Assembly: GCA_008632985.1 (NCBI GenBank)
Contig: QPGO01000213.1
Span: 1 to 64,000 of the forward strand
Source of the DNA: Psammoneis japonica
Lineage: Eukaryota
Direction of reading: 5' to 3'
Length of the DNA: 64,000 nucleotides
The number at the start of each line of letters is the position of its first letter. Positions within the stretch are counted from its first letter, which is position 1. Shown piece by piece: positions 19,291-47,493 of the stretch. The position numbers and the translations under genes were made by a program. The notes under the pieces are model-generated. The model saw nothing but the letters and a program-made list of their open reading frames with translations, had not been told where the DNA came from and ran no database searches.

Positions 19291-20454
19291 ATGAATAATC
19301 AGAATCAATCCAATAACAACAACGCCGCTGGAGCGCCTCCGCAACAACCCAATCCGTTCATGACACCACCCCGCCGCTCGAATGCAATTGCGATGGGCAC
19401 GCCGGGTTCGGCCATGTCGAATTACCAGGCTCGCGTGATGATAAATCAACAAGCGGTCGATGGTTTGAATCAGTTGGCAGGCCAACTTTGCCAAACATTA
19501 GAAGTCGTCAGCACCACCCTCGCACCCGACGTCCGTGAACCCGAGTAAGCACCAAAATATCTCATATTTTCTTCTTTTTGCATCGTTCCTTGCCTTGCAT
19601 CTAACTCATTTTGTGTTTTGTACCGTGTTTGGTGAAGATGGGGACACGTTCCGGATGTCGACGGGGTGCCGAACGATGTTGTTGTGCCGGTCGGCGGTGG
19701 CCAGAGCACCAGTGGTGCTCGAGCTCTGCTACTACCGCCCTCTGCTTCAGGCACTCCCAATGGTGTGGCGCCTGGTCATAGCGCCGGACCTTCTTCGACG
19801 CCTTCTGGTGGGTCTGCCACGAGTGGGGGCTCTGTTGTGGCGCCTCCTGTACCTTCCAGGAGTGCGCCTTCTGGCGGATCGTCGTCCACGCCTGCCACGC
19901 GTGGGGTGCCTGTTGTGGCGCCTCCTGCACCTTCCACGTCTGCCACCATTGGGGGGGCTGCTGTTGTGGCGCCTCCTGCACCTTCCAGGAGTGCGCCTTC
20001 AGGCGGATCGTCGTCCACGTCTGCCACGCGTGAGGCCCCTGTTGTGGCGCCTCCTGCACCTTCCACGTCTGCCACCATTGGGGGGGCTGCTGTTGTGGCG
20101 CCTCCTGCACCTTCCAGGAGTGCGCCTTCAGGCGGATCGTCGTCCACGTCTGCCACGCGTGAGGCCCCTGTTGTGGCGCCTCCTGCACCTTCCACGTCTG
20201 CCACCATTGGGGGGGCTGCTGTTGTGGCGCCTCCTGCACCTTCCACGGCACGTTCTGGCGGAGCGCGCAGGGGCCCTACCATTGTTTTTGGTTCCCCCGA
20301 CAACAGATCCCTGCCCCCCTTCAATTTCCGTTCGCCCAACAACGGTGTCGCGCTGCCGCCCGTTTACACGACGCCTTCTGGTCAGACCACAAACTCCAGT
20401 GGCATGACCCCCGAATCCACTTCACCGATGGATTATTCTCCCACCTATCCCTAG
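19291..20454 (+). CDS. Low-complexity Ser/Thr/Pro/Ala-rich protein with internal 43-aa repeats (probable intron from about 19545)
   Basis: ORF 19291-19548 ends at a GTAAGC donor; ORF 19666-20454 carries the repeats. The exact acceptor is uncertain. Confidence 0.5.
19833..20246 (+). repeat. 129-bp coding tandem repeat (VVAPPAPSTSATIGGAAVVAPPAPSRSAPSGGSSSTSATREAP)
   Basis: Unit starts at 19912, 20041 and 20170. Confidence 0.92.
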
Positions 20455-20737
20455 AGAGGAATCGAGCACGGCTCCTACTCTTTCTCTGTCGGCTGTACTA
20501 CGGTGCTATACAACATTGGGGACATGTAGGCATTGTTGGGTGCAATGTGCAATTTTTTGTGTCGGTATTTTTGCAATAGCTGCGACACTACTACAGAACC
20601 ATGAGAATAGACCCATTAGGGGTTTTGTGAAAAAGCTGATGACGAATCATCACTGCTCAAGCGTGCCAGTTTTTGCAATAGCTGCGACACTGTAGAACAA
20701 TAAGAATAGACCTATAGAGGTTTTGTGAAAAAAGCTA

Positions 20738-21011
20738 CCGTGATTATCATAGAAAATCTGTGCCACAGATTTTGGTTCAAAATTAGTACAGATTTTCAAG
20801 GATTCCGGAGAAATAGATACAGATCCTCAAAAAGTATAGATTTGCACTGATTCTGCCAAAACTGGATTTGGGTTTTCTCAGATTTGAAGAACCCCTCCCC
20901 TGCTGGGGTACAGATCCCAGATTTCCGTTCAGAACAGGCACAGATTTTCTGAAGCCCTGAAAAATAGGTACAGATTCTGATTTTGGCACAGATTTTCTAT
21001 GACAATCACGG
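20738..21011. mobile_element. MITE with 28-bp TIRs and a TA target duplication (Tc1/mariner-type)
   Basis: Left end TA|ccgtgattatcatagaaaatctgtgcca (20738-20765); right end tggcacagattttctatgacaatcacgg|CA (20984-21011); many internal ACAGAT motifs. Confidence 0.85.
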
Positions 21012-24000
21012 CACCACCAAGGAGCTCGTGCAGGGAGGTGACGACACTGCGCTGCCCGCATTTGCTGCAGGCCTGCAATCGTGCTGCTCAGACGGGAGAT
21101 GGAAGTGCCTCTTTCTTTAGTTTCTTCATCATGGGCCGAAAACATGTCACACTCCTTGGCCCCTGTCAGCCATGTGGTTTCCATTTCAGCGAGAAGGCTT
21201 TCTTCAATCATTCCATTCCCTCTCATGTGCCTGATGAAATCTCCAAGGAGATCAATGGAGCAGATGCTTGCGACCCTTCCAATCTCGGTGAAGTGGGAAT
21301 TGGTCTTTTGAAGTTCTACAAGACACTTTGCGCCTGTCATGAGCCGAAACAGAGAATGGAAAACCTCCTGTCTCCACGGTGCTTCTGGCGACAAACTTCA
21401 ACCTTCGAATCGCCCAGAACTCAGCAAACCGAGTGTTCAGCCTTGTGCTGACAACGACACGTTCGCCGTTTCCCGACAACCTCACTCCTTCCATGTGCCA
21501 ATGCCAACTTGTGCTAAATTCAAAAGAACATGAAACAGCCACCTTGCCTTTGTCGCTTTTGCCAATGCCAGCTGCAGTTGGAGCATCAAGAGCAATCTTC
21601 TTAAACCCCCTGATCAGATCTGCACCCCCCTTGTTCTCATTCTTTGAATTGTCCAGCAAACAAATTGCAAATTTGAGGTGAGCAAGCTCATCCAGGGGAG
21701 TGCCTCAGGGAGCACACTGAAAGCCTGTGTCCCTTCTCCAAACTTCCCTTGTGATGACAGCTCTCCCATGGCTGGAACTGGAATTTCCAGCAGAACAGTG
21801 CCAGGTGTGACTGTCTGTGCTGGTGGTGCAGGACTTGTGGGCCTCAACCTTGATCAAGATCACCACGTGCAATTGGCAGGAGGAGATTTGAAATCTTCAG
21901 AATTTTGGCAGGCAACAGCTGGTGCTCCCTGTTCTTCTGTTGTCACAAGAATGCTTTCCTCACAACATGATGAAATCTTGTTGCCAGCTCTGAGAATTGT
22001 TTGAACTTCTTTGCCAATGGTGGCATCAAGTTGCTTGAGGTCGTTGCTTGCTGGCACTTCCCAGCAAGCAACAAATCACGGGTCGGCTGCATGCAATGTC
22101 ATGCAAACCCTTTTCCAAATGGGTGGAATGTCAACCATGTTGTTTGTTTTTGGCACACCATCCCATCCAAGTTGAAGTCCGATGAGCAGCTGCAAGTGTG
22201 CTCAAGCTCTGGTCTCACCCATCACAAGCAAGTGTTGCTGTCAACAGTTGGGTGCTGATTTGAACCTGCTCCAGCTTTGTCATTCAAACAGCTTGTTGGA
22301 AATGCTTTGTGTTTCCCATGCAAAAAGCAGCGAACATTGAATCAATTGGATTGCATGCTCTCAAAATCCGTGCATTTGTGCCCAGTGGACTCAGAGTCTG
22401 AGTCCACTCAGAGCCCAAAAACCTTTTCCTCTGAGCTTTCAACATGTTTGCAAGTTGTTTGCTGACAGACAAAGTGTCTGTGGCCTTCATTTCCAGCAAA
22501 CAGGCATCTTGGTCAACTAACGAGGCATGTGGGTGTTTGCAGACATTTGCACCATGACTCCCGCCACAACCATCATCTCTTTTTCTTGTTTTCTTTTGTC
22601 TTGCCGCTGGCTCAAATGGCAAAAAGAAAAAAGAACACAAGGATGCAGCATGACATCCTGGCTCATGCAGATTTGCACCTGTCCCGTTTGTCACTGTGAG
22701 CTGGAAACAAACGTCCAACTCTGAACGCGGTCACAAAGAATGTGCGCACCTCCATTGTAAGAAACCATTTGCTCAACATGAACTCAAACACACAAGCCCA
22801 AGGCTGTTCAAGCAATTGGTGCCACTGGACCTGGAGCCAACCCACATGGAACAATGAGGTTTTGTGGGGACACCAAGACAGGATGGATGACATTGGTGGA
22901 TCCCAAAAGTTCAATGTCTTTTGGTGCCGGAACCCAGCAAGTGCCCCTTGTCATTGACACACATCACGAGTGTCTTAGAGCTGAAACTCTTTGTGTTCAC
23001 AGTTCTTTTGCAGTGCTCATGCGGACATCATTGTGGAAGAATCGAACACCATTTTGCCATTGAAGGGTTCTGGGTGACTGCAATGAAGTCAATGAGAATC
23101 TCATGACAAGAGTGGCAGTGAATTGCCAAGAGGATTTCAGCTGTCAAGATTCCAAGATGCAAAAGGTCATGGAAACAGCAACAGAGTTGGATGACAACAA
23201 TGGTGCTTCTTCACAAGAACCCAGATCACAGTCATCAACTTGTGTGTTGGAAATCAATGAAGAGTTCTGCAAGCTGTTTGCTCACAGCCAAAGCACCAGC
23301 TGACACTGTCATGGAGTGGATGAGCAGCTGTCAGATTCAGAAAAAATCCTGTCAAAAAATTGTGCTTGCCGTTGGTTCCAACCAATGCAGCTGATCCAAG
23401 TTGGTGCCTTTGTCAGCCCAAGCTCATGAGATGAGTTCTTGTGATGCTCATTTTCCAGCTGGCTAGATTTGCACTCCTGTGGACATGACGCTTTGCAGCT
23501 GGGCAGTCTTTGCAGGAGCATTTGTTGACATGTCATCATTTGTGCAGAAAAAAGAGTGATTTGATTTGCCAAATCATTGTTGCTCATGGACCACCACAAG
23601 CTGTTGGTTGTGCAACAGTTTTTGCTTTCAAAGAAAAAGCTCCCTGTCAACATTTTTGTTGAAAAGAATCATGCCTCATGCCCTTGACTGAATCAATTCT
23701 CCATCAAAAGGAAGCAACAGTGTGAAAACAAACAGAAGACAATGTTCAAGACATTGAAGCTTTGGCATTCCAATGGAATGGCAGTTTGACAAGATTGGGG
23801 AAAGAGTGCAAGTGGGACAGATCACTCTTGAGAGAGAGTGGGTTGAAAAGTGTCAGCGGGAATTCTCAGCAAAGTTGTGCATTCCTGAATGAATCTCAGT
23901 CACTCGTGGATGTTTTTCAGAAGGAAGCAGCCAACCAAGTGCTTTTGAAACTTGGGCAGCAAGAGGAGCAATTCTTGATCGTGGAGTTCAATGATGATGC

Positions 24001-25275
24001 AACAAAACAAAGAATCACACACGGTCGCATTGTCAGCTTGCAAAAGAATGTCTCATTCTCTGGGACGGGTTCTAATCAAGAGCAAGAACAAAAGAGGATG
24101 AGCATCCAGATGAAATTGCCTTTAAATTGAAAGCTCACCTTGAAAAAGCAATGGATGCATGGTTTCGTCTCGGGTTGACAAACAAATTGTCGATCCACGG
24201 CCTTGGCGTGCACGGCAGTGACGACTTTGAATTTTGGAGTGGTCTTCACAAATGAAATGATGAAGAACTCATGGAGCAGGTGCATCATTGTGAGACAATG
24301 GATGCATTGTGCACTCAGGGATTTCACTCTCTCTCACTCTAAGCAGCTGAAATTCAACGCTTTCACATGTTCAGTGCAAGCAGCCAGAGTCACACGGAGG
24401 AGGTCAACGAAAGTTGAAAACGCAAGTTCAAAAGTGATCGAGCTGAAGTGGGTGCGGCAGCCCGAGTTGAAAGGGAAAAAGCTTGGAATCACATCTTTGA
24501 GGCCTGCAAAACAGGGAAACCAGTTCTTGAAGATCCCTTGGTGGTGCTGACCAAGGGAACCTCAGCATGGTCCACATCCAAGCAATGACAATCATTCGTG
24601 CATGAAAATTTAAGCAAACAACATGTGTGAGGAAGACGTGACCGCAATGACGTCATTGAACTGCACTGTCATTGCTCAAAATCAGTTCAAAGCTCACGAA
24701 TTCAAACTGCAACAATGGACAAGAACAGCGCGACTCTTTGACAGCCACATCGTTGACACAGAAAAAAAGAAATCTTTTGATGTCTTTCTTCAACTTGCCC
24801 CAACTTGTGTTTTCTTGTGCATCTCTCATTTCTTGACAATTGCTCACTTCTTTCCTTGGAACAAACACCACACATGAGACACTGGCATTGCTGTCTTGGA
24901 CAGGCCATTGTGTGGTCATTTGCCCTTGGAAGCCAGCACCGCAAACGGAATCATTCGTGGCACATCGTTCATGGTGTTGCGCAACGTTGCTTGCATTGTG
25001 CATTGAGTGCATGCATGTGCTCGTTCCTCGTTGAGAGCACAACGCACTGAAACAAACAAAGTTGAATCAGTGCGACGAAAATGCGTGCCATTCTATGCAC
25101 GTGGCCAACATGCCAAGAATCGGGATGCTGAATGCGCGAAATGCACGTGAGCTCGAAGGAGAATCCGACACCGCGCCGCAAGCCACAAGAGCAAGCAACA
25201 ACAATGCCAAAGCTTTGATCGACTGTCGCATTGTTGTTCGTTGTTTTCTTTGTCTTTGTCATTGTTGTCTTTGTC

Positions 25276-26938
25276 ATGGACGCGGCGCCTTTGTTGGACT
25301 TTGGCGGTGAAGGAGATGAGACTCCCGAACGAGAGTGCATGCAACGCTTGTTCCAAAGGATTGCGGTTCAAAACGAGCAGGAAATGGAGAAACTTGAAGA
25401 ACCATTGCGGTCGCTGGTGCGACTGGTGCATCAGGCAAGGACACATTTTCTTTCAGCTCTGCACTCCCCATGGATGGAGAATTGAAACCGAAAAAAAGAG
25501 AATCAACTCACGTGCGCTGATTGCCTTTTGCTCAAAGCAAAAATGGGTCGAGGCAAAGGAGTGCATCCTGTTGCACCCACAAGCAATGCATGAGATCACA
25601 ACTTTGTTTGCTGGCAGATCTGTCACTCACATGGCCTGCAGCAATTTGGCTGATGTTGAAGAATTCAATGAAGCAGCTCGTGTTCAAAAACTCAACCAAG
25701 ATGATAAAACGGAACGTCAAACATGTGACTTTGTGCAGTCATTGTTTGATGCAGCTTTCAGTTCCGACGATTTAGATTCACCCTCGAAACGGGCACTCGT
25801 ACAATCAATGTTGTTTTGTCGCGATTGCAAAGGATGCACGCTGCTGCAAAGCCGCGTCATCTACAACTTCTGGAGTGCGACTGATCCAGCGCCGCCAGCA
25901 AAGATTCTTCTGGAGTCGGCTGGAAATGCCTCTCCCACAACTCCGTGCGAATTGGTCACCGCTGCATGCGAGAGAGGCCGGACAGTGTTGCACATTGCAT
26001 CAGGGGGGGAGTTCCCGCACCAGATTTTTGAGCTTCTAATGGCTTGTTGCGGAGGCGCTCCGTCAGAGAACCCCACTTTAATTCTAGATGGAGATGGTCA
26101 ATCCATTCTAGACCTTGCGGTTGTCAATGCTCTGTCGGGAAGGCGTTGGAATGGGATGTTGGAACAAGGTTTCGGAGGACTTGTGCATCAAAATGATGAG
26201 GGTTTGTTTCCAATTGACAGAGTGGTTCAGGTTGCTCATCGTTTTGAGAGACCGGGAGAGCACATCTGTGAAATTGTTTTTCTCATGTTGCGAGCTCACT
26301 TTGGAAAAGTCGAAGCAGCATCTGAAGACTGGTTTCCACTTCATGCTCTGGCGCAGGCACCCTTTTGTTGCCCGTGCGTGTCAAAGTTTCTCCTTGAAAC
26401 ATGCAACTGGAGCAACCAGCTTTCAACCTTGGATTGTCAAGGCATGTTGCCACTTCACAAGGCGGCTGCACAACCCATGCCAGAGTTGCTGCTGAGAGCC
26501 AACCAAACTCCACTGACCTCAAAGGAAGTGAGTGCCTTGCAGGCACTGTCAGCTCAAAAAGCACTTGAAGAGCTTCGGTGTCACCCAAAGGAGCCAATCC
26601 CGTCGTTGAGTGGCATGGAAATGACGGAAGGTGAAAACAATGTGATTCTTTTGTTGCTGAATGCTGGCCCTGATGCTGCGGCTGCACCAGCAATGGTTGG
26701 CAGTCGGCTGGCACTTCACTGTGCCATCGAATCGGGTCACGCATGGGAAGCAGTGCGACAGTTGTAGAAGACTGCTCCAGATTCAGTGATTGCTCCTGAT
26801 CCTAAAACAGGACTGTTTCCATTCATGCTGGCTGCGCCAGCTCCCGAAAATCCTTCTTCTGGCTTCGAGAGGAAGTCCAACAGTGGACTGGATGCGACAC
26901 TCGATTGGTTTGCATTGCCCAAGCACATTTCTCCCCAA
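25276..26938 (+). pseudogene. Ankyrin-repeat protein (diatom type), hypermutated
   Basis: GRTVLHIA, FPLHALA, MLPLHKAA, LALHCAIESG, DPKTGLFPFMLAA. Intron 25435-25537 has a GCAAGG donor and joins in frame; TAG stop at 26765-26767; one Tyr in 508 aa. Confidence 0.75.
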
Positions 26939-27328
26939 GACGCGTTCCAGGTCTAGGTGGGACCTCGCACTACTGCACTGTGACATCGACAGTTTTTTGA
27001 ATCACGTCGTATGTCGCGCACGTAGATTTCTACGTGATTTTTTCGATATTTTGTGTCATTTTACGGTACACTTATTGAGCGATCTGTCCAACAACTTTTG
27101 ACATTTTTTGTTACAGCGCGATTCTATAATGTCTTAAGAATCGCGTAGGGCAGGCGCATTTGCAGAAACGTCGAGTGGCAAGAGGCATAATTGCACCACA
27201 AACTTGGCAGTTCATTTGATGTTGAAGACAAACAAATCCATTAATTAAATTCTAGCACTGCGGAGCTCGCACGTAGAATTCTACGGGCCCAATGTCACAC
27301 GGAGTCCCACCTAGGACTGGAACCCGTC
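26939..27328. mobile_element. 390-bp MITE with imperfect 25-bp TIRs and a CCAA target duplication
   Basis: gacgcgttccaggtctaggtgggac (26939-26963) pairs with gtcccacctaggactggaacccgtc (27304-27328); CCAA at 26935-26938 and 27329-27332; interior is TA-rich. Confidence 0.8.
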
Positions 27329-27759
27329 CCAAGCCGGTTTGGCAACTGAGAAGGCCACAGGTGCTTGTCATGTCGGTGCCACAGTTTTTGTGTCCAAGCA
27401 GTGTTCCTCGGTGTTGCAATTCATCGTCGTCATGTGAAAACGTTTGGCCGGTGTCTCACATGACATTGACATGCACGGAAGCCGCAGGTGGCATGTGACA
27501 CTTTCTAGTCAGCACAATCTATTTTTGCCGCCCTCTCGTCCCATCGGTTTGTCAAGCTCTGGACTGCCGCAGTCAGTGGCATCTAGTTTCGACGCCCTCT
27601 CGGTTTAGCAAGCTCTGAACCACTGTGAAGCTTTGGCAAAGAGGGACGTGTTGGAGCCAGTTGAAAGAAAAGAGGAGCACTTGAGAAAGCAAGGAGTTGA
27701 GAAAATGTGCCTGAAGCAGTCGCAACACTGCGACAGTCACAGGCATCACACTACAGTCA

Positions 27760-30188
27760 GCAGCATCCAGTTTCGACGCCCACTTGTGCTCTTGGTTTAG
27801 CAAGCTGTGAAACTTGAACTGTCACTTTGTCATTAAAAACAGTTTGAGCATGACGCCCGCAAAACTTCTTGTCATCATCTGGCAGCAATTCCCACTCCTT
27901 TTGTCCCTTGTCTGCATTGCAGCAGGGGTGTTTCAAGACAAGTCGGTTGCCACAGAGAAAAAATCCTTGATCTCGAAACGCAGTTGACTCACAATGCTCC
28001 TCGTCTCCAGCCAAAGGCTCGCCCCGTGCCCATGCAAAATGGCTTCGTAACTGAGATGAAAGCGTCCCGTCTTTGGTTTCATCGTGTCTCTTGGAGTTCC
28101 TGTCAAACTGGAAGGACGACTCAAAGAACAAATGTTCTTGCTAGTTTGGAGAAGCTGTGGGTGTCAGCACACTGTTGTGGTGGACAAAAGTTTCCAAATT
28201 TTGAGAACAAGACGAGTGCAGTGGCGCCAGTGAAGAAAGCAAAGCCCTGTCATCAACGGCTGTCCTCATGTTCTTGACAGTGGGGATGAACGCAGAAACA
28301 AATGTCGAGACTTGTCAGTCTCGGCATCAAAGTCCTTTTGGGGATCAGCCTTTGATTTCATGTGGTTCGAGGGACGACTTGCCCGGACATGGAAACAGGG
28401 CTTACGTTCTGTTGTCCTGCCATCGTTGCCGTGCCTAGAGAGGCAAACTTTTATGGTGCATCGAGGCTCGTTCAGCAAAACAGCCATTGCAACTTTTTTG
28501 AATTCAATCATGTCTGGTTGTCAAAGCTTTGTCCAGATGCAAAGAAATGTTCAATGTTGTGACTGTTGAACCGCTGTGGGACGGAAAGGATGGTGCTCCT
28601 GTCGAAGAAGAACCGCCCTTGTCAGAAATCATGGCATGGGACAACAATGAAGGCGAGTTGCAGTTGCAATGTTGTTGTGTGGTCACGCTGCTGGCAGAGG
28701 CCTTCATGCAAGTTGATGGATTTGAGGTGCTTCTTGCATGAAAATTGCTTTTGTGTGGACTCGAATCCCTTGTTCATTCCGCTTCTTCTCTTGACAAGGA
28801 AGCAGTCTCAGCATTCTGACTCGACGTTGCCATGTCTGCAGCAAGATCCGAGTCAGTGTCGTGCCACGAGCCCATGTGCTCATCTTCATCCCCGTCCTTT
28901 CTGCCAGGACACCAACGGCCATCTCGTGAATGCTTGTCAAGGCGACGGCATCGCCTCCTGCGTTTTTTGCCCTTCGAGTTGACCCGCCCACACTCTCATC
29001 TAATTCGTTTCATCCCAGGTGTTCGCCATCCTCGTCATTCGTGCTCCTCCATTTCCTTCCACTGGCCATTCTATTGAATTCTTCTGAGTCTTCTCTCCTG
29101 CGTTGCACACTTAACTCTGAATTCTCACTCTCGTCAGATTCGCTTCCTCCCAGATGTGCGTTGTCCTTGCAATTCGAGCGGCTCTTCTGTTCTGTAAAAC
29201 ACCATCCTCTCCATCGCCATCGATTTTGGCGACAGCATCCTGCTCAATTGCAATCTCATCGCCATTTCCTTCAATTTCCTCCTCGGTCATTTCATCCTCC
29301 TTTACGACCTCAGACTGCTCGTCATTCTCCAAAACAACGCATTCAATGGGATGTGTTGCCTCGATGCCTGCGGATGCCAGAAATTTCTTTGCAGAAACCA
29401 CCGTGCCACAGAGATCAACAAAGACAGACAATGCACACACGTGCAGGCATTGCCACCCCACATGCTCGATGGACTTCTGTTGCCCACAACAACTCGTTTC
29501 CATTCTTATCTAGAGAGTAGAGTCGCCGGCACAATCAACGCAGACAGCTGCTCGATGCGACGACCGGAATCCCCGGTGCACAAGGCGCAGTTCCACACAA
29601 CACCCATTCGTCTGATGGAGTGTATTTCGTCTGTCAGAAGCCTTTCTATCACTCCCTCCACTTCCTCTCGAAAGGATAAAATGGCGGCGCCGTTCAATGA
29701 GAAACCCTGGATGGTGGATTTGTTCTCGTCTCCGGACCCACTCGCTTGCGAATCCACAAAGAAATCAACAATGGGTCCCTTGACATCTTCCCCATTGGAA
29801 TGTGACTGGCGTCAACACTCCTGACAAGTTCCATTCGATCACGTGCCCTAGAAAGTTCAACACTTGCACGCTGCGCATGCATTTGCGGATTTGCAACATC
29901 AGAACACTTCCAACAGAACACACGAGACCGAGGAATGTTGCGTCCCTTTCGGCTCACTGAAAGGTTTGAGAATCACCAATCATTGTCAATGTCGTGCTCC
30001 TTGCATTTTGCGGGTCCAATCGCATCCAGAACTAACTCCTTCTCGTTCATCTGCCAAACCTTCTTCGGCTTCTTCCGGCAGCAACAAATTGTTGGAATTG
30101 GAGCGCCAGAAGCGGTTTTGGTGGTGGACGACACATCAGGGCGCTGCTGCTGCTGCGTTCCGTCATGATGTGATATTGTGTACGGCAT
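27760..30188 (-). pseudogene. Degenerate long coding sequence of unknown family
   Basis: Chain of minus-strand ORF fragments starting MPYTISHHD at 30188, with an acidic tract and scattered stops and frameshifts. Confidence 0.35.
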
Positions 30189-33736: not shown

Positions 33737-34237
33737 CTTGAAGGTAGATACAATGATCGTAGGAACCGAAAGCAACAACAACAGCAACTACGCCGCTAGC
33801 TAGCTAGTCTACAACGCAATAATGACAGCGTCACCGTTTTGGAGTTTTCGATCGTTCCATCTCCCGAGCGCCGGCCTCGGCGACGTTATTTTTGAACAGA
33901 AGTTCGAAGATGTAAATGGATTAAGTATACTTATATAGAAATCCAACTGGCCGGCTTATGAACGTATACAAAAATATATTGATTTTCAATCATTTCTAAG
34001 TCCTGTATAATAATATTATCTATAGATACTCACTTATTTCAATTATGATTATGGCCCATAAAGCTTCTACGAATAAATCAAGTATGTAGAAAAGCTATGT
34101 ACATTACACGCAAGGCACGACTATCAACGGAAAAACAAATATTTTTTTAGCACGAATCAACGTCGTGTGTACCGTAGACTACGGCGTGCAAGGAGCCTGT
34201 GCGCGACGCGCCGCCCCATGCATCTCATGCATTCACC
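33737..34237. promoter_or_regulatory. Conserved divergent intergenic region, copy 1
   Basis: Shares blocks with 55098-55560 (ttccatctcccgagcgccggcctcggcgacgttatttttgaaca; tatagaaatccaactggccggc; ggcacgactatcaacggaaaaa); lies between head-to-head genes. Confidence 0.6.
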
Positions 34238-36298
34238 ATGTCCATGTTGTCACTTTTGGAAGTGCTGCGACGACGGAAAATGACGACGACACCCGGCGCT
34301 GTGCCTCCTCAGATCCTATCTGCGTTGGAGGAGCTTCGTACACCCTCGAGCTGCTCAAATTCAGCAGAAGCGGCATGCGAGCTTTTCGAATTCTGCAATG
34401 AGCGGAAGGACAAAATTCCTCAGTCGCTCACCCAAGCCGGATTTCTTGAGACAATCATTGGTGCAATGGATCACGATGGGCAAAGCAAATCCTTTTACGT
34501 GTGTGTCATTCTTGTGATCCAAACTTTCATGAAGTCAAACGAAGACAACACAGAAGAATTCTTTGAAAAGGGCGGTCTCAAAAGAACAGTGTTTCTGATG
34601 GATGCATTTGTCACGGACGAAATCATTCAGACGGCGGGAGTTCAATGCCTCTGTTACCTTATGTTCAGAATCAGTGAGAAGTTCGCGGTTGAAATGGGGA
34701 CAAGAATCATGGAATGTGTTGTCAGAGCGATGGAAATTCACAAAGACTCAGCCTCGATCGCTGATTTTGGCATTGCAGGTCTAGTGAAGGCATCGGACTT
34801 GCTGCAACATGCGTTTCGTAATGATTTGATGCTTCGGTGCAAAACATGTCTCGAGCATTTGCTCCCAAACCATCTGCCTGATGTTGAGGGATGTGAGGAG
34901 AACTGTTCGCACTTGCTTGAGGAGTTTGACAAAATGCTCTTTCTCCGTCGTTAGCCAGAGAAACTGAGCAATTCATCTCTCAGTGCGTCGGAGGCCACGC
35001 AGCTCTTTCATGCTGTCGCATTGTTTGTTGCCAAGCCAGGCATGTCAGGAGCACTAGTCGGCGGCGGATTTTTCAAAATGGCCATTGCTTCATTGAATGA
35101 CGGTGGGCGGACCCGAGAGGTCTGTGAACAGCTTTGTGTGATGCTCACTGTGTTCATGGGCCTCGACGACAAAGGCAAGGGTTGCACGGAACAAATCCTT
35201 CGCATTGGCGGCCTCGAAAGCGCTCTTTGTATCGTCAACAGTTTCCCAAAAGATGAAAGGTGTCAGAGATCGGTGCTGGAGCTTTACCGCTTTTTCTGCG
35301 TGAATGGCACAGATGCAAAGAACGGGGCGGACATTGCGAACACGGTGCTCGAAAGCGCAATCAACATCATGAGCAACCATGAAGACTCGGCGCTTGTCTT
35401 CAGGCTATCTTGCCAGGCGGTTTTTGAGGCATTGCTTGTTCTTGACTTCTCTGTCAATGACGACGCGCTCTTTGACCAATGCATCAACTGCGTTTCCACT
35501 GGGGTTGCGAAGCATTGGAATGACAATGAATCTGTCGGAGTCGGTCGATGTGTGCTGGAAGGTTTGATTGGAGTGGACGCTTCAAACGAGGTGTTGGCAA
35601 AGCACTCTATGTCACATTTCACTTCCCAACTAGAGGAACTTCGTCATCCATCTCGCAATTCCGTGAAGGCGCTCGCGGCCGCACGGGAGCTTTGCTCCGC
35701 AATCGGCGCGGAAAAATTCCCCCTGTCCCTTGTCGATTCTGATTTTTTGGATGTAATCACCCATGCAATGAATCACCTCGGCCAGTCCAAAAGTTTCTAT
35801 TTTCCTTTGTTGATGATCCTTGTAAATCTCATTCATCTGGAAGACGCAACTGAGAAAATCGTTGAGATGGGAGGCGTCGCAAGATTGCTTGGTTTTATGA
35901 AATCCTTTGTGAACGAAGAGACATGGCAGTTGAATGCTCTTTACGTCATCCAACATTTTGCTTCTGAGAAGGGCGGTGCCTTTGCTGCTGCCATTGTCAA
36001 GAACGTCACAGAGGCAATGCGAGCCCACAAGGACTCGACAAAAATCTACTCCGCGGGTTGTAAGGCACTTGAGCAATCGTTGGAATCGATTGGATGGTGT
36101 GTTGAAGATGAAAAATTGCTCAAGAGAGTTGTGGACTGCGTTTGGTGTGGCATTGCAAATCATCCCTACGACGACGACTTGCAGTTGCGAGGTCGTAAGC
36201 TGCTGCACGTGTTGGTTGGAGATGAGGCTGCCAAAGAAATGATTTCATGTTCTGAGCATCGTCATTGTGCCGATGCTCACTGCAGTGCCGCTGCTTGA
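34238..36298 (+). pseudogene. Armadillo/HEAT-like helical repeat protein with three long repeats and one in-frame TAG
   Basis: Repeated LEELR.PS...GQSKSFY...GG units; ORFs 34199-34954 and 35021-36298 are in the same frame, separated only by TAG at 34952-34954. Confidence 0.65.
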
Positions 36299-37219
36299 GA
36301 GGTGCAGTTGTGAATTCTGAGAATTCTTTCGGATTTTGAAGTGGATTTGTAGTTTTTTGTCCTTGACCAAGACAAGTTACGGCGCCCAACTGTCCCTTCT
36401 TGATCTCTTGTCCATTGCCGGCACAGGAAAACAAGGATCAAGATGGTCGTGCATCCACAGCAGAGAAACGCGTAGAAATCATGCCAGAAAAAAATCCCAA
36501 CAATTTTCGTTTCTTTTCTCTTTGTTTGTCATGATCAAATGAGTGCATTTCTCATTGCAATTGACGGTGCACTTTGATGCAAAGTTCAGCATCCTGGTTT
36601 GAGGACTTCACAATTGGGAACACAAACAGGCACGGATGCGGAAAGCAGCAATTCGCTTGAGCATGCGAACTGCTGCAAGAAAGTTTTCTGTCTTGACAAG
36701 TCTTGAAGAGAGAATTCGAGGCCTGCAGTGCTGCTCTGGAGCAGCAGCAGCTCTCAAACAAAATGTGCACTGTGCAGTTATGATGGTCACATGCACCGTG
36801 TGGCAGCAACAACCTCATTTGTTGTTGCTGTTGTTCTGTTCGACTCCCGAGGGCTGATTGTGTGGTGCAACTCCGAGACACTCGGAGATCGAAAGGTTGA
36901 GGTGTCCACACTGCACGGCACTGCAAGATCTTGATTCTGCAGCCATTTTTTCAGGGGACGATGTGTCCTTTGCATCAACCTTTGGTCTTGGAGGCATGCA
37001 ATGCCCATTTGTGTGTGTGTGNAATGCCCATTTTTGTGTGTGGGGGGCGTGTGTGCCAACCTCCTTTGGGCACACATGAACACTGGGCAGCTGTGCCAAT
37101 GACAAAGATGTCAAGGTTTCAGAGAAGAGACTTCAAACCCGCTTGTCTAAATTGTGGCACACTTTGCCTTGAAGAGGCAGGTGGAAGGGTTTTCTGCTGC
37201 TGCCACCCACAAAAAACAT

Positions 37220-37620
37220 GTGTGTGCTGCACAGATTGCTGCTGCGAAGCACACCAGATGGGGTCATTTGTTGGCTGTTGACCAGCACACCCAGTGCCAC
37301 CACAGGGCTCACAAGGACATGCCAGAATGTTGGCCAAGCCAGTGGCTGAGAAAAAGAAGGTTTCTGAGCTTCTGAAAGGCATCTCTGAACCCAGATTGGA
37401 AACCAGGAAGAGTGTGGTGGATGGAAACCACACCAAGCTTGTGGGCTTTGAGGCTTGCAAGCAGCACGTCAAAGCTCTGGTCAAGAGTGCCAAGAGCCAG
37501 CACAGGAGGGCCAAAACTTGCACAACTGCCTGTGTTGGCCAACATGAGAGCAACTGACATAGAAAGCAAGGTGGCAAGAAAGGTGCAAAGAAGGAAACAC
37601 CTGGGATTGGGGCAGGCTGC
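37220..37620 (+). mobile_element. Ty1/copia (CoDi-type) gag remnant
   Basis: EKKKVSELLKGISEPRLETRKSVVDGNHTKLVGFEACKQHVKALV resembles the CoDi gag pattern KKV..FL.GI.D..L...K..V...KL..FE.CQQY (Tyr appears as His). Confidence 0.55.
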
Positions 37621-38549
37621 TGATGAGCAATGAGGCCGGCTCTGTCTGCTCTGCGGCTCCAGTGCATGCATGCGAGACCCCCTCATTTTTTTGGAATGCT
37701 CTGCATGGCAGAGTCTTGCACAAAACACACTTGCAGATCTAACAATGATCAATTGCACAGCATCAACAAAGAAGCCAGCACCTGCACCACCCAACAGATG
37801 TTGTCAAACTCATTGTAGAAGCATGCCAAGGTGCACTGGAATGGAGAGAATCGGCAATCAGTTCACTCCATTTCATCCAACGCTGAACCATCCCCAGTGC
37901 AAAATCATCACTTTTTTGGTTGGTGCTGACATGCTTCATTGATTGTCATCATGCACTTGGCTTTGTTGCACCTTGCAAGCCTTGGTGTGGAAATGTGTGT
38001 GTCTTGAGTGGTTGTCTTGTGGTTTTTGTCGTAAAATGGTTCTGTGATTTGTGAGAATTGACTTGCCAGACATGTGCTCACTTAGAGATGGGACTCTTTC
38101 TTGTCATGATGCAGGTTCTCAGCTCACACAATGCCAACAATGATGGTCAATGCTGCAGTGGATGCAGCAGAACCATCTTTGCTCTCACATTGCCTGCTTG
38201 TTTTCTCATGCTTGTGTGCTGCTTGATGACAGAGCCTTGACTGCCTCAAGAAGCCCCAAACCAAGCAAGATTGAATGTGGCAACAAATGCAAGGAGGAGC
38301 TGTCTGTGCAGACCTGGCCAATTTGTTCTTTCCAGGGGGGGGGGGAGGAGATTGTGCCAGTCCCGATGAGAATCACAACCAGCTCAGTGAAGTGGGGTCA
38401 TTCAAGCAGTTGTCAGATCAGAGCTCTTGTCTTCCCTCTGTCTAAAACACAGAGGTGAGAATCTTGTTGTTGTTTTGGTGCACAGGGTGCACCACATTTT
38501 CATTTTCCCTGTTGTGCTGACACAACACATTGTGTGTCTTCAAGGTCCA

Positions 38550-39250
38550 CTTTAAACTGTTGCAACCCGGAGAATCGCCCAAACTGGTGCCCTGCCAGTG
38601 GTGAATTTGATTGCTGCAAAGTTTCCTGCAACAAAAGCACTGTCTGAATTGAGCATTGATGATGGAATGGACGGGCACCGGTTCTTGCATGTCCTGTGGC
38701 AACAATGATCCACACTGCACCCAAACTGCAGGCTTGGTCCCAAATGTGGGAATTGCAGATTGGGCATGAGAAAGTTTGTGAAATGCAGCCATCATCGAGA
38801 AAAAGGCAAAACCTGGAGGCTCATTGCTGTCAATGGCACAAGAGAGGGTGAGCTCATTTGGGAGCACGGGTGAAGTCATTGACCAAGAAACAAGAAAGAA
38901 ATGCCTTGGAACATGGGCTGGATCATCCAAACAACCCCCATTGCTGCATGATGCATCTTGACACCAGACGGCACATTGATGCCATAAAATCCTGCAGGAA
39001 CATGGCTCCTGGCAAATTTCTGTGATGCAACCACCATTTTGATGCAAAGGATGTTTTCAATGTCAAGGCACCTTGTCGGGAAGAGAGTGGGAGGAAAACA
39101 GGAACAAGAAGTTGCAAGAGTGCACTTTGAGCATGACAAGAAATTTCTGTTGGACCTTGGCAAAGACAAAGCATGCAGACATTGGTGCATGTTTCCGATC
39201 TTGTGCCAGGCACTGCCAAAGACAAGACCATTGCGAGTGGACTGCAAGAT
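38550..39250 (-). mobile_element. Ty1/copia RT-RNase H remnant
   Basis: Fragmentary KIGNMH (DIGNAY-like), LLPQDMQEP (LPPNMPEP-like) and NSDSAFVAGN...FTTG (DSDFAG...STTG-like). Confidence 0.4.
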
Positions 39251-39499
39251 TGCAGTCAAGAGTTTGCAGTGAAAAGAAGGCTCTTCTTGTGGTGCATTGT
39301 CATTTTTGGGCTGACTTTGAGTGCCAATTAACAGCAAGAGCAGTGCCAAAGCACCTTGCTGTCTCTGCTTTGGCAAATTACAAAAACAGAAGAAGTGCAA
39401 GTGCTGCACATTTTCACTTTCCTGAATGTTGTGTGCTGCATTTCTCAAACACACGTTGTGTTTCCTGAATGTTGCACATTGCATTTCCTTTTCCCAAAG

Positions 39500-40200
39500 C
39501 ACATTGCGGTTGAGTGGAATCTTTTCAAAACAATGGCAAAGGGAGACTGGCTTTCCAGCATTGGGAGCCAGTCATGCCAATGGTGGGAGTCTCTGCAGCC
39601 ATCTTAATTTGAAGAAGCCTGCTGGCAACAGCGGCAGCAGAAAGAGAAAACAGAAGCAACATTGTGAGCACAATGAAAGGCAATGGACTGTGGCTGCTGG
39701 CACAACACTTGCATCTTTTCTGCAAGAGCCTCCATTTCCAGGAGCTCTGCATGCAATGCTTTGGAATCAAAGATGATCTTTTCCTGGGAAGCAATGGCAT
39801 CGCTGATGATTGCTGCCCTCTTCTTCTCCAACTCAGCTTTCATGACAAGGCACTTCCTTTTGACCTTTGATGCAGCAATCTTGGTGTCCCTGTCCATGTC
39901 ATTGGAGGCCAAAGCTGCCAGCATTTGGTGCTCCCAGCAGTGCTTCATGTTCACAAGCCAGTGCCACAAGACCTGCTGCTGGTCCGGCAGAAATTCATCC
40001 TGGAGCTCTGCTTGAGATTCCTCCAAGTCAACGATGGTCTTGCTGATGATGGCTGCCTTCTTCTCAAACAACTCTGACTTTTTGATGCATTGTGTCCTTT
40101 CAAACTTCAATGGGGCAATCTTCTTTTCAACTGTCAACAAGAAATTCTTGGCATCCATGTCATGGAAGGGGGCGAGGTTGCCGGACAAAGTGTGAACACT
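39500..40200 (-). pseudogene. Hypermutated partial paralog of the 53966-55097 gene family
   Basis: Intron, second exon and downstream flank align with 53745-54360 (gctggcaacag..gagaaaacagaa..ttgtgagcacaa..caatggactgtgg..gctggca); donor GTAAGT appears as GCAAGT. Confidence 0.7.
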
Positions 40201-40220
40201 CATGGTGCACAGCACCGTGT

Positions 40221-40427
40221 TGGGGAAAGTCTCCAGCCAGCTGCTGGCTGAAGAATCTTGTGTGGAATTTGTGCTGAAAGAGTCTGTCAATCTGCGTGTC
40301 AGGGGATTTTGGTGAATGCTGGACAGACTCGTCATCTTTTGTGCACACAACGATTCTGCTGGCAAAAGCCCCAAACGCACCAATGACCAGATTTTTTCAG
40401 CCAGCAGCTGGCTGGAGACTTCCCCCA
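40221..40427. mobile_element. MITE with about 32-bp TIRs, hypermutated copy
   Basis: tggggaaagtctccagccagctgctggctgaa pairs with ttcagccagcagctggctggagacttccccca; flanked by gtgt on both sides. Confidence 0.75.
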
Positions 40428-40451
40428 GTGTGACAACTCCTGCAGTGATTG

Positions 40452-41700
40452 CACCCCTGTGGCAGGGGAGAATGTGGTGATGTCACAATCATGTGGCAGT
40501 TTTGTGTCTCATTCATTGTGTTTTTACACAAATGATGTTCTCACATTCATTTGTGCATTTGTGCACAAATGCCAACAGCAACAGGAAACATCCTGAACCA
40601 CATTCTCCCCCAAAACTCTGACCACCAAAATCTGCAGGTGCTGTTGACACTGGTGTTGTCTTTTGCCAACAATGCCCACAATGAAGTGCCAACAACTCAC
40701 ACTTCTTTCTTTCTCACCCTGCTGCCTCCCAAAGATGCTGTCACAATGCAAACACTGCACCTGCATTTCAGTCCACTGGCATGCCCGATGCTGTTCCTTC
40801 TGCCCTTGCTGTCACAGGTGCTGTTGATGCTGTCATTGTTTTTCCTTTTTGGAAGGAGGACAATGGATGATGGTGGACCAGGAAACTGTCACCATGGCAT
40901 GCTGATGGACAAGTGTTGGTGTCATTGCCCTGCTGATGGACAAGTGTTGGTTTTGTTGCTGACATGCTTTCTGTGTTTGTTCATGGTTTTCCAGTTTTGG
41001 TTCAAGACATCTTCTGAAGAACTTGCATCCCGTTGGGCAAAGACACAGCAATCAACTTTTCAGGCATCAACACCTGTGTTGCACAAGTGTTCAGTGGGCT
41101 CTTTGCCTCCCTTTTGCTGGCCTGCAACATCAGTGGACATGAACAGCGCCTCTTTGTTGGCTCTTGAGTTTGGATTGATCTTTAGAATGTGTGCAGACTT
41201 GTGGTGCAGCTCTCTGTAAATTAGAAACCTGATGACATTCAGACAGCAGGCACTCTTTTGCAGTTTTTTAGTTGGAGAGGTCAGCAAATTGGCATTTGTT
41301 TGCAGGCAACTTGGCAAGGTTTCAAGTGGTGCATGTGACTTGGACACCGCACTCCATTTGCCAGGACTGAGTCATTGTCTGCAATTCCGTAAGATGCCAC
41401 TCTTGCTGTTTGAATTCTGCACACAACATGCAATGTGCTTTTTTGTAAGTTGCCAAAATGGAGGCAGGCTGCAATGTGCTTTTGGTGAATGCTCACTGTG
41501 TTTGTCACTGTTAGACCTTCTGAGCTGGAACCACATTGACAGCCATGCTGCCACTTTGCATGCACTGGCACCTTCTCCACCTGTGCTCCATTGGCCAGGG
41601 CCTCCTTCATGTTGATGCGGCTCATCTTGATGCCTGTTGTTGGCTCTGATTGGCTCCGCTGGGCTCTGGGTGAGTGTCAATCACCTCCAGACAGAGGTGC
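40452..41700 (+). repeat. Repeat-family copy starting cacccctgtggcaggggag; inverted copy of about 48200-49250
   Basis: The first about 180 bp match 47494-47670; 40630-41700 matches the reverse complement of 48200-49250. Confidence 0.75.
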
Positions 41701-43109
41701 AACAACATTTCAAAAATGAAAACGACTTGTCGTGCAAAAAGTTTGAAAATTTTCAGCTGTTGCCATTCATCTGGCCATCACATGTGCACTTTGACCTTGC
41801 AGCCTCTCACTCTCTCGTCCTCTTGTCCTCTTCCTTTTCTTCACAAACTTGGAGAGCCACCTGTGTGACCAGACATGTGAAAAAAATGAGGCAGGGCGTG
41901 CCGGAGAGGATGATGGATGAAGAAAGTCAAAGATGTGCCTCCGGTGGGCAGGAATTCAGAATTTCCAAGGTGCTGGAAATTTGAAAAGGTGCTGATTTTC
42001 TTTTCAAGTGCTGATTTTGAAAGGCACAAGTGCAGACAATCATTTGACGGCATGGCATCTGGCATCTGGCATCATGACAGATTTTCCTGATGCGAACACT
42101 CTCGCCATGACCTGCAAACATCACCAACCACTGGAGAGGACCCACCACCCATTGGCTGCAGCAGTCACCTGGTTCCTGCTGTCTTGCTCTGTTGGCATTT
42201 CAACCAGACACCTGACAAGCAAACAAATGCCATTCATTGCACTGATTGACCAAGCAACCACTGTCCACAAAATGGCGGCCCACAGAGCACCTTGCTCTTG
42301 CAGCTCTAGAACCTGTTGATTGCCGCATCAACCAGCGGGTGCGGCTCACAGTCTAGAACCCGTTGATTGCCACAACAACCAGTGACCCACAGAGCATGAC
42401 CTGACTGTCACTGCTCCAGAGAATGTTTTGATTGCCACACGAACCTTTCCACCACTTGTTGCTCCCAGCAATTCTCAGCTGTCATTGTTCTTGCAGTGGC
42501 ACTTGGTCACTTTGTCAGAGCTTTTGAGCTGCAACCCTTGACTTCTTCCTGGAGAGGGGCAGCATCACTCACAGGTGGCACAACAGCACGACTGCAGTTC
42601 ATTGATTTTTGTGATGAGCACCATGTTTGCCCCCCATGGTGGATGCTCATGCAATTGCTGGTGGGTTCACAGTGCACTCACACACCACACATGTTTCTGC
42701 ATTTTGGCACATGTGATTGGCGGCAGATTGCGACACATCCATGCACTGCAGCTCTGCTTGAAATGGACATTTTGCATTCATGGTGCAGCAATTTTCAGGA
42801 TGATCTTTGCGCATGCAATGCAAAGGGCGGACAGAGCAATTGATGGTTGTTTTCATGGCTCTCTGCTCCAGAGCTGGAGAGCCTGCTCTCTCTCTGCCGC
42901 AGAGCTGCCACTCTCTGCCAGAAGACACTGTGATTGCATGCAAAACATGCCAGGACAGATGTTGCAATTTGTCACATGCATCCAGACACATGGCGCATTT
43001 TGACAATGGCACATTGATGTCGCATGTTGATGCATTTTGACAAGAGCTGTTCTTTTGCCAACCGAACTCATTTCAATTGCCAACCCTGCTCATTTTGATT
43101 GCCAAAAAT

Positions 43110-43625
43110 TGGCAATTGAAATGAGCAGCATTTGAGCTTGTTTGAGCACATTTGAGCATGTGTGAGCAATTTGAGCACATTTGAGCAAGGACATTTCAGC
43201 GCACAATCCAAATGGTGATGAACTGTGAAACCTTCCGTGTCCCACTGTTGGAAAGATCGTGCACACCAGCAGTTGCATGTCCTCCTGTGAAAGTCCTGCC
43301 AGAAATTGAAAACCTTGCACAACAGCCAATGGATGGTTGCCCATGCAATGTCTGCCCCTGCAGCTCTTTGCGTGCTGCGCTCCAGGGCGATCAACAAGAT
43401 GCGCTTGGCCTCAGCACTGTGCGTGCCCATTTCTCTTCTTCTTCATTTGGCGCTGTTGTGTCTGTTGGTCAAGGAGAATTCAAATGAGCAGCATCTGAGA
43501 ACAATGATTCAAATGAGAAGCATTTGAGCACAATGACTCAAATGAGCAGCATTTGAGCAAATGAGCAGCATTTGAGCCTTTTTGAGCACATTTGAGCACA
43601 AATGGCAATGATTTGAGCACAACTG
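43110..43625. repeat. Two clusters of 10-12-bp TTTGAGCACA/AAATGAGCAGCA repeats (possible transposon subterminal repeats)
   Basis: Visible at about 43115-43200 and 43480-43620, upstream of the pogo-like transposase. Confidence 0.65.
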
Positions 43626-44039
43626 GTGATGACATCAGCAAATTGGTGATGAGAAATAAATGCAAATTTTTGCATTTGAACAAATGTTCATGCTGCAGAA
43701 TCCAACGCAATTTGACGCAGAGCCAAGAAATCCAGACCTGTGAAACTTCAAATGCTCCATTTTGACACCCTTTTGACACTCGCAAATGAAAGATCTGATT
43801 GCGCTGGCCAGGAAAAAAATTTGCCCGACTCCAAAATTCCATGTCGTTGTCATTTATGCACCTCAAAAAATGTTTCCTTGTGACTGTTGATGGGATTGAT
43901 GTTGCACATTGAGGCAATTTTTTGTCACACGCAGAAACAATGCTGACACATGCGCAGGACACCACCAAGATTTGGCACCTCATTTCTTTTTCTAAGATCA
44001 ACCATGGCACCACCTTTGAAGCCTCCAAAAATGCAAAAA

Positions 44040-45560: not shown

Positions 45561-45926
45561 TGACTGTTGCACACATGTTTGCAATCATGTGTTGTTTGTG
45601 TGTCAATCGTGCCACAGTCGTGGATGCATGCAAAGGACAGAATGATCACACAGAGTTGATCGGATGTCGAAAATTGCAAACACAATCAATTGACGATGTT
45701 GACATCTTGCGTGTCAACAGCAATTGCACCCGGACAATCTGTTGTCATGAACATTTTCTCCGAAAGGCCTTTTGTCTGCAGAAGCAGTGCAGAAGCTTCA
45801 GGCCATTGAGAACTCGTTCGGAGAAACCAAAAATCACAGAGCAAAATTTAATCTTGCAATTTTCACTTTTCACACTTGATTCTGCTTTCATTTGCACTTG
45901 TTCTTCGAGCACAGTGCACTCCCAAG

Positions 45927-46810: not shown

Positions 46811-47493
46811 AGACAAATTGCAGCTCCCAACTGTCCCTTCTTGATGTCTCCTTCTCCATTCTAGGATGACAAGGATTGAGATGGCTCTGCATCCATCCAA
46901 GGAGATGCATGTTGTGCTGTGCCAGCTTGCAGCCAAACAATGAGTCTTGGTGGCCCCGCGTCAGTGCCCACAAAATTGCCCCTTTGTGGGGATGGCCACG
47001 CACCAATCTCCATTGGGTGCACACAAACATTGGGCAGCTGAGCCAATGACAAACATGCCAAGGATTCAGAGGGGGATTCAAATCCACTTGCATCTCCTTT
47101 CTAGATTGCAGCACATTTTCTGTGCAAAACTCCACTTGGTTTTGACTCCTTTGGCTTTGGCTTTCTGAGCACAAATTTTGAGTGCAGCTGTGTGCATCCA
47201 GAAGGATTTTGCAGACAGCTGAAGGTTGTGTTTTGTTGCTCTGTGCTTTTCACCCTCTTTCTCATTCCAGGTTTTCTTGCAACAGCAGCAGTGGGAACAG
47301 AAAACAGAGGCAAGGTTTTGTGAGCAGCAATGAAGACTGTGGCTGCTGGTGGCACAACACTCACACCGTCTTTGCATGCTGAGAGTTGCTTTCATGCTGG
47401 GCCTGCGCCATTTGGCGCATGTAGAATCTCGTGTAGAAATCACGTGCGCCACTGTGGCGCAAAATTTGTCACGCCCTGAACTCCTGCCTGTTC

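What the first reader, a model, noticed from the sequence alone, without database searches (positions are those of the whole stretch)
21012..30170. Sequence context of surviving TA sites suggests an enzyme motif
Residual TAs in this domain are mostly YTAR (TTAA, CTAA, TTAG, CTAG) or TCTAY/RTAGA. In paired copies YTAY usually becomes YTGY and ATAG becomes ACAG, so the edited A is preferentially followed by a pyrimidine (TAC/TAT). Exceptions exist (GTAA>GTGA, GTAG>GTGG, TTAG>TTGG). A TAY preference is reminiscent of TadA's UAC substrate (inference only).
Basis: partly seen in the sequence, partly recalled or inferred. Interest (0 to 1): 0.7.

Follow-up and report, generated by a model that had tools for sequence, protein, structure and literature searches.

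The report
Fingerprint of a diatom TA mutator
In silenced blocks of a diatom genome an unknown process turns nearly every TA into TG or CA, and the neighbouring letters it prefers give a fingerprint for finding what may be a natural DNA adenine-editing enzyme.

Summary
Confirmed and extended. In the TA-poor parts of 21012-30170, 28 of 48 surviving TAs are YTAR, against 242 of 1571 outside. Three data sets from the same genome (intact/edited gene pairs, 76 insertions of a 390-bp MITE, 198 kb of TA-poor DNA) show A>G on either strand at 5'-T[A]Y. A following pyrimidine raises the rate about threefold, and T at -3 protects. A weak second activity hits A[A]Y. Editing happens in place after insertion, is one-way (donor copies are spared), shows no strand-coordinated runs, outpaces CpG decay and still differs between near-identical copies. 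It works like the TpA hypermutation described in Bigelowiella natans (2026 preprint), here in a diatom and with a wider context. 'TadA-like' is half met: the 3' pyrimidine fits, but the second-best 5' base is A (as in ADAR or Pol eta), not C. Best guess: DNA adenine deamination (0.55); rivals are Y-family polymerase error (0.25) and adenine modification (0.15). New lead: a second, stand-alone ADAR-fold deaminase conserved in diatoms; no link to the mutations is shown. The scan already noted this process, and TAY, on other pieces of this genome.

The parts
20999..26953 (.). TA-poor domain 1 (decayed repeats and gene copies; CpG also depleted)
   Evidence: 23 TA, 3.9/kb; CG 28/kb against 55/kb in the long normal flank
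27313..30173 (.). TA-poor domain 2
   Evidence: 25 TA, 8.7/kb
26939..27328 (+). Young 390-bp non-autonomous element with terminal inverted repeats (MITE), barely edited; 4-bp target duplication CCAA at 26935-26938 and 27329-27332
   Evidence: Copies 95-98% alike, 1456 candidates; alignment; 4-bp duplication in 52 of 59 full-ended copies
25151..26767 (+). Edited ankyrin-repeat gene copy; frame still open (538 aa) but with 1 Tyr, 29 Cys and 20 His
   Evidence: Pfam Ank_2; intact paralogues L073 and L004
28263..30033 (.). Edited duplicate of a gene-rich locus: 3' part of an SF1 helicase gene (AAA_11/AAA_12, minus strand) and part of a thioredoxin/PDI-like gene
   Evidence: 83-84% identity to unedited L072, which holds 46 and 27 TA/kb
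21101..21528 (-). Edited fragments of an unannotated ~600-aa gene family
   Evidence: 86% identity to intact L010/L017; no Pfam family
20736..21013 (.). Second MITE at the left border; more TA changes at its domain-side end
   Evidence: 2 of 9 TA columns changed on the left, 6 of 10 on the right, one on each side shared with related copies; suggestive only
22132..22133 (.). CA in the window, TG in a near-identical copy: one ancestral TA edited on opposite strands
22519..22519 (+). TA in the window, TG in the near-identical copy and in run X1
25800..25800 (+). TA in the window, CA in the near-identical copy

Best explanation
SHOWN (about 0.95): a locus-confined mutator turns A into G in 5'-T[A] on either DNA strand, so TA becomes TG or CA. 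The strands act as independent targets. A 3' pyrimidine is preferred about threefold, a pyrimidine (mainly T) at -3 protects, and A[A]Y is a much weaker second target. A TA survives best when both its adenines are followed by a purine, that is in YTAR. Editing acts on chromosomal DNA after insertion, a little at a time, and depends on where the sequence lies rather than on having a homologous partner. INFERRED (0.55): the chemistry is deamination of dA to inosine by a zinc deaminase brought to silenced, CpG-methylated blocks, and replication fixes it as G. Within that 0.55 I put about 0.25 on an ADAT2/TadA-fold enzyme, 0.2 on an ADAR-fold enzyme (a diatom-conserved stand-alone paralogue is the new lead) and 0.1 on another deaminase. 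A defence role is inferred from the targets, not shown.
For: Purity: at the 26 TA sites of 76 MITE insertions, 636 of 1976 became TG or CA, 1 became CG and 17 changed otherwise. In the 34 most edited copies 663 of 986 TA are edited against 139 of 952 CpG, while transversions elsewhere stay at 0.2-0.7% per site. +1 rates relative to A: G 1.3, C 2.7, T 3.3 (597 of 657 sites in 102 alignments, p=1e-15); C or T at -3 about 0.6 (p=3.5e-4). A four-rate additive two-strand model explains ten tetranucleotide retentions with R2 0.97. One-way: 128 TA>TG/CA from intact partner to window, 9 in reverse. After insertion: 24 of 32 copies with at most 2 edits sit in flanks with at most 10 TA/kb. Recent: 3 of 5 substitution events between the window and a near-identical copy fall on TA, with only 21 TA in 5388 bp. 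Same mutation type as in B. natans mutation-accumulation lines. The genome encodes ADAT2, a TadA-like protein, ADAT1 and a second ADAR-fold deaminase with invariant HAE, PCG and CSDK motifs.
Against: No enzyme is linked to the mutations by any test here. The deaminases found may all be tRNA or nucleotide enzymes; the Asn said to allow DNA editing in ADAT2 is, from my recall, usual in eukaryotic ADAT2. No deaminase context that I read about matches both the 5' order (T>>A>C,G) and the 3' Y. No strand-coordinated runs (overdispersion 1.12, p=0.28; neighbour covariance p=0.22; 38 copies), unlike a processive single-strand deaminase. T against C at +1 is unsettled: survival favours T, direct competition does not (30 C against 25 T; 123 against 79 in related copies). 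In the second family A beat C 34 to 22 (copies share ancestry), and GAY (34 of 1394) exceeded CAY (28 of 1705). AAY against CAY is not significant in the MITE alone (p=0.075). Methylation is inferred from CpG decay only.
Confidence: 0.55

Rival explanations
1. Error-prone repair synthesis: a Y-family polymerase (Pol iota or Pol eta) fills short gaps in methylated chromatin, for instance after G:T mismatch repair, and puts G opposite template T behind a primer-terminal T.
For: The 5' order T>A is the WA motif of Pol eta (PMC8639439). Pol iota inserts dGMP opposite T 3 to 10 times more often than dAMP (PMC2194173). The genome has a Pol iota-like gene and two Pol eta-like genes. TA edits correlate with CpG decay across copies (rho 0.61).
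Against: The spectrum is almost pure (636 transitions against 18 other changes). TA is hit far more than AA (67% of TA sites against 3% of AAY), a larger gap than I recall for Pol eta. No same-strand clustering. One copy carries 25 TA edits and no CpG decay, though faithful repair of G:T would leave no trace.
Confidence: 0.25
2. A TpA-specific adenine mark (6mA or another modification) is laid in silenced blocks and decays to or is misread as G, as 5mC drives CpG loss; the context is that of the writer.
For: Symmetric dinucleotide, both strands, slow independent accumulation, and overlap with CpG decay all resemble methylation-driven decay. CG almost never arises from TA (1 of 1976).
Against: TA loss is several times faster than CpG loss, which would need an enzyme anyway. 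Eukaryotic 6mA is, from my recall, mostly ApT in genes. The weak AAY activity does not fit a strict palindromic mark. An MT-A70 search found nothing, but its control was blank too, so it tells nothing.
Confidence: 0.15
3. RNA editing of mobile-element transcripts followed by reverse transcription, or simple selection or composition bias, or a sequencing artefact.
For: ADAR-type enzymes favour a 5' U.
Against: Both strands are edited within single copies; a DNA-type element with target duplications and duplicated host genes are edited in place. Non-silent changes are accepted (Tyr>Cys, Leu>Ser). Separately assembled contigs of run X1 cover the domains with 11 listed differing places. Eight later duplicates of one insertion share one edit pattern.
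Confidence: 0.05

Closest known systems
TpA hypermutation of integrated viral DNA in Bigelowiella natans (bioRxiv 10.64898/2026.01.13.699255)
   Same: A>G only after T, on both strands; regional; TpA-poor, CpA/TpG-rich clusters enriched in mobile DNA; enzyme unknown.
   Different: Here a diatom; the targets are MITEs, repeats and dead gene copies; erasure is nearly complete; CpG decays alongside; +1, -3 and AAY rules are resolved. The preprint's main text has no 'trinucleotide', 'context' or 'diatom', and it looked only for ADAT2-type candidates. Its supplements were not seen.
TadA and TadA-derived adenine base editors
   Same: A>G with 5' T best and YAY>YAR (PMC12528748, PMC8989541).
   Different: They edit CA readily and are weakest after A or G; here CA is barely touched and A is second. 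Natural TadA acts on tRNA. ABE3.1 does have a slight AA preference, so the fold is not excluded.
[quoted passage not shown]
   Same: 5' T best, then A: TAG 94%, AAG 81%, CAC 53%, AAT 43%, GAA 27%, GAC 19%.
   Different: 3' G is best for ADAR and among the worst here; the diatom ADAR-fold protein has no dsRNA-binding domain on record.
Fungal repeat-induced point mutation (RIP) (recalled; one paper seen as a search listing only)
   Same: Dinucleotide-directed mutation of repeats with sharp borders.
   Different: Opposite chemistry (RIP creates TpA from CpA); here donor copies are spared and edits build up gradually without strand runs.
Pol eta WA>WG and Pol iota T:dG errors
   Same: A>G after T or A.
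   Different: Clustered and less pure in the known cases; no whole-domain erasure known to me.

Membership tests
B. natans-type TpA hypermutation | Almost only A:T>G:C transitions at TpA, on both strands | tested here: met
   636 TG/CA against 18 other changes at TA sites; TG 72 of 128 against 63.8 expected
B. natans-type TpA hypermutation | Confined to regions of foreign or mobile DNA, genes spared | tested here: met
   Sharp domains; intact donors. Duplicated host genes inside the blocks are hit too.
B. natans-type TpA hypermutation | Rate about 1000-fold above background per generation, on in some lines only | not testable with these tools
   Only relative, historical rates are available; 3 of 5 differences between near-identical copies are at TA
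B. natans-type TpA hypermutation | Same enzyme or same extended context | not testable with these tools
   Enzyme unknown in both; the preprint's mutation table was not seen
TadA/ADAT2-type DNA deamination | 5' T best and 3' pyrimidine preferred | tested here: met
TadA/ADAT2-type DNA deamination | C as second-best 5' base (YA) | tested here: not met
   AAY 109 of 2963 against CAY 41 of 2451 pooled over two families, p=6e-6, the second family not independent; MITE alone p=0.075
TadA/ADAT2-type DNA deamination | Candidate gene with HxE, PCxxC and Asn at the TadA D108 position | tested here: met
   ADAT2 at L143 read by eye across an intron; not specific, as this is the housekeeping tRNA enzyme
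ADAR-type deamination | 5' order T>A>C>G | tested here: inconclusive
   T>>A holds in two families; C against G flips between them
ADAR-type deamination | 3' G preferred | tested here: not met
   G 1.3 against C 2.7 and T 3.3
ADAR-type deamination | ADAR-fold enzyme with intact zinc site beyond ADAT1 | tested here: met
   activity and substrate untested
RIP | C>T at CpA | tested here: not met
   CA is enriched 1.47-fold; CA>TA is not raised in the second family
RIP | Both duplicated copies mutated | tested here: not met
   128 against 9; partners are only 73-86% alike, so this speaks to old duplicates
Pol eta/iota mutagenesis | WA motif | tested here: inconclusive
   Order T>A met, but the TA:AA gap is over twentyfold
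Pol eta/iota mutagenesis | Same-strand clustering | tested here: not met
   p=0.28 and 0.22; many rounds over time could blur clusters

The most novel reading that the evidence does not exclude
A stand-alone ADAR-fold deaminase, kept beside ADAT1 across diatoms and in more distant unnamed eukaryotes, is a natural DNA adenine editor that is guided to silenced chromatin and erases TpA with a T[A]Y preference: an adenine counterpart of RIP and APOBEC in algae, and a ready-made duplex-DNA adenine editor.
Probability: 0.15. Interest if true: 0.92.

Novelty: new variant of a known kind. Interest (0 to 1): 0.68.

Why it matters
Natural enzymes that mutate adenine in genomic DNA are almost unknown; adenine base editors had to be evolved from a tRNA enzyme. 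The only direct precedent I found is one 2026 preprint in a chlorarachniophyte, without an enzyme or an extended context. A second, distant lineage with near-complete TpA erasure suggests a wider genome-defence route in algae. The quantified fingerprint (T>>A at -1, Y>R at +1, T at -3 protective, no strand runs) makes candidates directly testable: express each one and compare spectra. It also warns that repeat ages, Tyr-poor open frames and dinucleotide statistics in such genomes are distorted.

Tried and rejected
Strand-coordinated bursts: not found. Bias to the coding strand: none in the gene pairs (72 TG against 63.8 expected). A six-position model on the MITE alone gave large -3 and +2 effects but is overfitted with 52 contexts; I kept only what the pair set and hexamer retention also show. 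Within-window pairs were too few. MT-A70 search was blank with a blank control. No RNA holder was listed, so expression is untested. Run X1 is kept as contigs and may be the source sample, so it checks the assembly but gives no allele frequencies. Exact look-up of two window proteins found nothing. The Atlas gave only general A_deamin clusters, so the range of the second deaminase family beyond diatoms, and its presence in B. natans, stay open. The tree is the quick one, on 32 chosen rows, midpoint-rooted, without metazoan ADARs. Paper searches for a diatom report of TpA loss and for a described diatom ADAR-like family found none; most subscription journals are not in the library. Rows dropped: 8 of 84 MITE copies as later duplicates; subfamily-marking columns; 60 of 657 pair sites that were neither TA, TG nor CA. 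The MITE sample (84 of perhaps 1400 copies) was drawn by similarity and by one 15-base word, so its spread of edit counts is not the family's.
Full report
Setting. The window is eukaryotic gene-dense DNA. The best named eukaryotic-alga homologues of its MCM4 fragment are diatoms (Odontella, Thalassiosira, 63-64% identity), and the deaminase genes also match diatoms. TA falls from 43-58 per kb to 2-9 per kb in sharply bounded blocks, with TG and CA raised and CG lowered. The finding covers two such blocks, 20999-26953 and 27313-30173, with a TA-rich 390-bp insert between them.

Observation. In the TA-poor parts, 28 of 48 surviving TAs are YTAR against 242 of 1571 in normal DNA (p=3e-11), and 8 of the other 20 are TCTAY/RTAGA against 121 of 1329. 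Treating the two adenines of a TA as independent targets whose rate depends on the next base fits these ten values with four rates (A 0.44, G 0.89, C 1.86, T 3.16; R2 0.97). Normal DNA is only a proxy for the ancestral composition.

What is edited. The blocks hold decayed copies of ordinary genes whose intact partners lie elsewhere: an ankyrin gene, a helicase/thioredoxin segment and an unannotated gene. From intact partner to window there are 128 TA>TG/CA changes and 9 in reverse, with no strand bias (two of the seven alignments overlap). The ankyrin frame stays open for 538 codons because these changes create no new stop in a sense codon, yet it keeps one Tyr. Over 657 TA sites in 102 intact/edited alignments (MITE masked), the adenine followed by a pyrimidine wins 193 to 99 at mixed sites. 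Rates relative to A at +1 are G 1.3, C 2.7 and T 3.3; C or T at -3 lowers the rate to about 0.6; positions -4, +2 and +3 add nothing significant.

A natural time series. The insert at 26939-27328 is a high-copy MITE with terminal inverted repeats and a 4-bp target duplication (52 of 59 copies). Of 84 distinct copies, 76 are independent insertions, carrying from 0 to 25 edits at 26 TA sites: 365 CA, 271 TG, 1 CG and 17 other changes among 1976. Of 32 copies with at most two edits, 24 lie in flanks already stripped of TA, so editing follows insertion and acts on the chromosome. In the 34 most edited copies, 663 of 986 TA are changed against 139 of 952 CpG. Y wins at 13 of 14 mixed sites. Strand choice within a copy is no more clustered than chance (p=0.28 and 0.22). 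Some edits are inherited by subfamilies, which inflates a few sites.

A weak second target. Outside TA and CG, heavily edited copies show A>G at AAY in 36 of 1154 chances, AAR 2 of 1156, CAY 13 of 746, GAY 4 of 849. The AAY edits fall on 16 of 33 available sites and track TA edits (rho 0.59) more than transversions (rho 0.27). A second repeat family (26 related copies, not independent) repeats it: AAY 73 of 1809, AAR 14 of 1967, CAY 28 of 1705, GAY 34 of 1394. The full fingerprint is therefore T>>A>C,G at -1 and Y>R at +1.

Real and recent. A near-identical copy (C534, haplotype or young duplicate) differs inside the domain by five events: CA against TG at 22132-22133, TA against TG at 22519, TA against CA at 25800, one CpG and one other. 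Separately assembled contigs of run X1 carry the same TA-poor sequence, with 11 listed differing places in the finding; that run may be the source sample.

What is known. The B. natans preprint (parts 1-3 of 5 read; term search; supplements not seen) reports 230 of 231 mutations in two viral regions as A:T>G:C, all at TpA, and proposes ADAT2. I found it before consulting earlier notes. Passages read: PMC12528748 (TadA editors, YAY>YAR; ABE3.1 also slightly AA), PMC8989541 (preceding T best, A or G narrowest), PMC10354150 (amphioxus ADAT2 edits DNA at GAA and TCG), PMC5389660 (ADAR on hybrids), PMC5558901 (ADAT1 in protists), PMC8639439 (Pol eta WA), PMC2194173 and PMC3031609 (Pol iota). The diatom DNMT5 paper PMC9998398 was seen as a search listing only. 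RIP features and the usual 6mA context are recalled.

Candidates in the genome. The deaminase searches gave dCMP deaminases, RibD, a TadA-like protein with an N-terminal extension, ADAT2, a deaminase fused to a 2OG-Fe oxygenase and one more small deaminase (labels partly by eye). The A_deamin search gave two genes. One is ADAT1. The other belongs to a separate family with 322 hits, named members in Skeletonema, Thalassiosira, Seminavis, Fistulifera, Nitzschia, Pseudo-nitzschia and Attheya, and only PF02137 on record. Its zinc motifs are invariant in 60 aligned members, a model of one member has the ADAR fold (pLDDT 81, best matches Hydra ADAR and human ADAR1, E 5e-21), and a quick tree sets it and 14 unnamed distant relatives apart from diatom ADAT1. 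Pol iota-like and two Pol eta-like genes are present too. None of these is tied to the mutations.

Verdict. The process works like the B. natans TpA hypermutation and meets the two features of it that could be tested; it is not RIP. The TadA comparison fits the 3' side only. Deamination of dA is the most likely chemistry (0.55), with polymerase error (0.25) and an adenine mark (0.15) open. Earlier notes of this scan describe the same process and TAY on other pieces of this genome; in the excerpts I saw, none mentions the AAY activity, the test for strand runs or the ADAR-fold candidate.

Noticed in passing
G000:C79:344558-345390 (L200, L201): Second, stand-alone ADAR-fold deaminase gene beside ADAT1, conserved across diatoms with intact zinc motifs; no description found.
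   Followed up: partly
L142:313-1785 (G000:C79): Small deaminase fused to a DIOX_N/2OG-Fe(II) oxygenase in one 491-aa frame.
   Followed up: no
L198:1333-1791 (G000:C151): Decayed, TA-poor copy of a small deaminase gene resembling L142's deaminase part; apparently a victim of the same process.
   Followed up: no
window 26939-27328: MITE with 1456 candidate matches and contig depth about 1000-fold above its flanks; nearly all sampled copies lie in TA-poor flanks; 4-bp target duplication of variable sequence, superfamily not assigned.
   Followed up: yes
window 1-1047, 34181-51371, 62777-64000 (continuing about 6.5 kb beyond the window, L077): Further TA-poor domains; the 17-kb one has stronger CpG loss.
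   Followed up: partly
window 47486-49575 and 40435-41697: Two edited copies of a ~2-kb repeat family with internal 180-bp tandem repeats; at least 26 copies in the genome.
   Followed up: partly
window 19812-20265: 129-bp tandem repeat that is TA-poor but CG-rich (81/kb); probably a coding repeat, not an edited domain.
   Followed up: no
window 58701-59602 against L075:4983-5891: Reverse case: the window copy is intact (48 TA/kb) and the partner is edited (7 TA/kb) with equal CG density, so TA loss can come without CpG loss.
   Followed up: partly
L151, L161-L165, L167, L170: Eight copies of one heavily edited MITE insertion share flanks and edit pattern: a segment duplicated after editing, mostly on short contigs.
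   Followed up: no
MITE position 373 (window about 27312): A CCTAGG site in the right terminal repeat is edited fast on both strands (30 of 33 copies) although CTAG is normally slow; unexplained.
   Followed up: no
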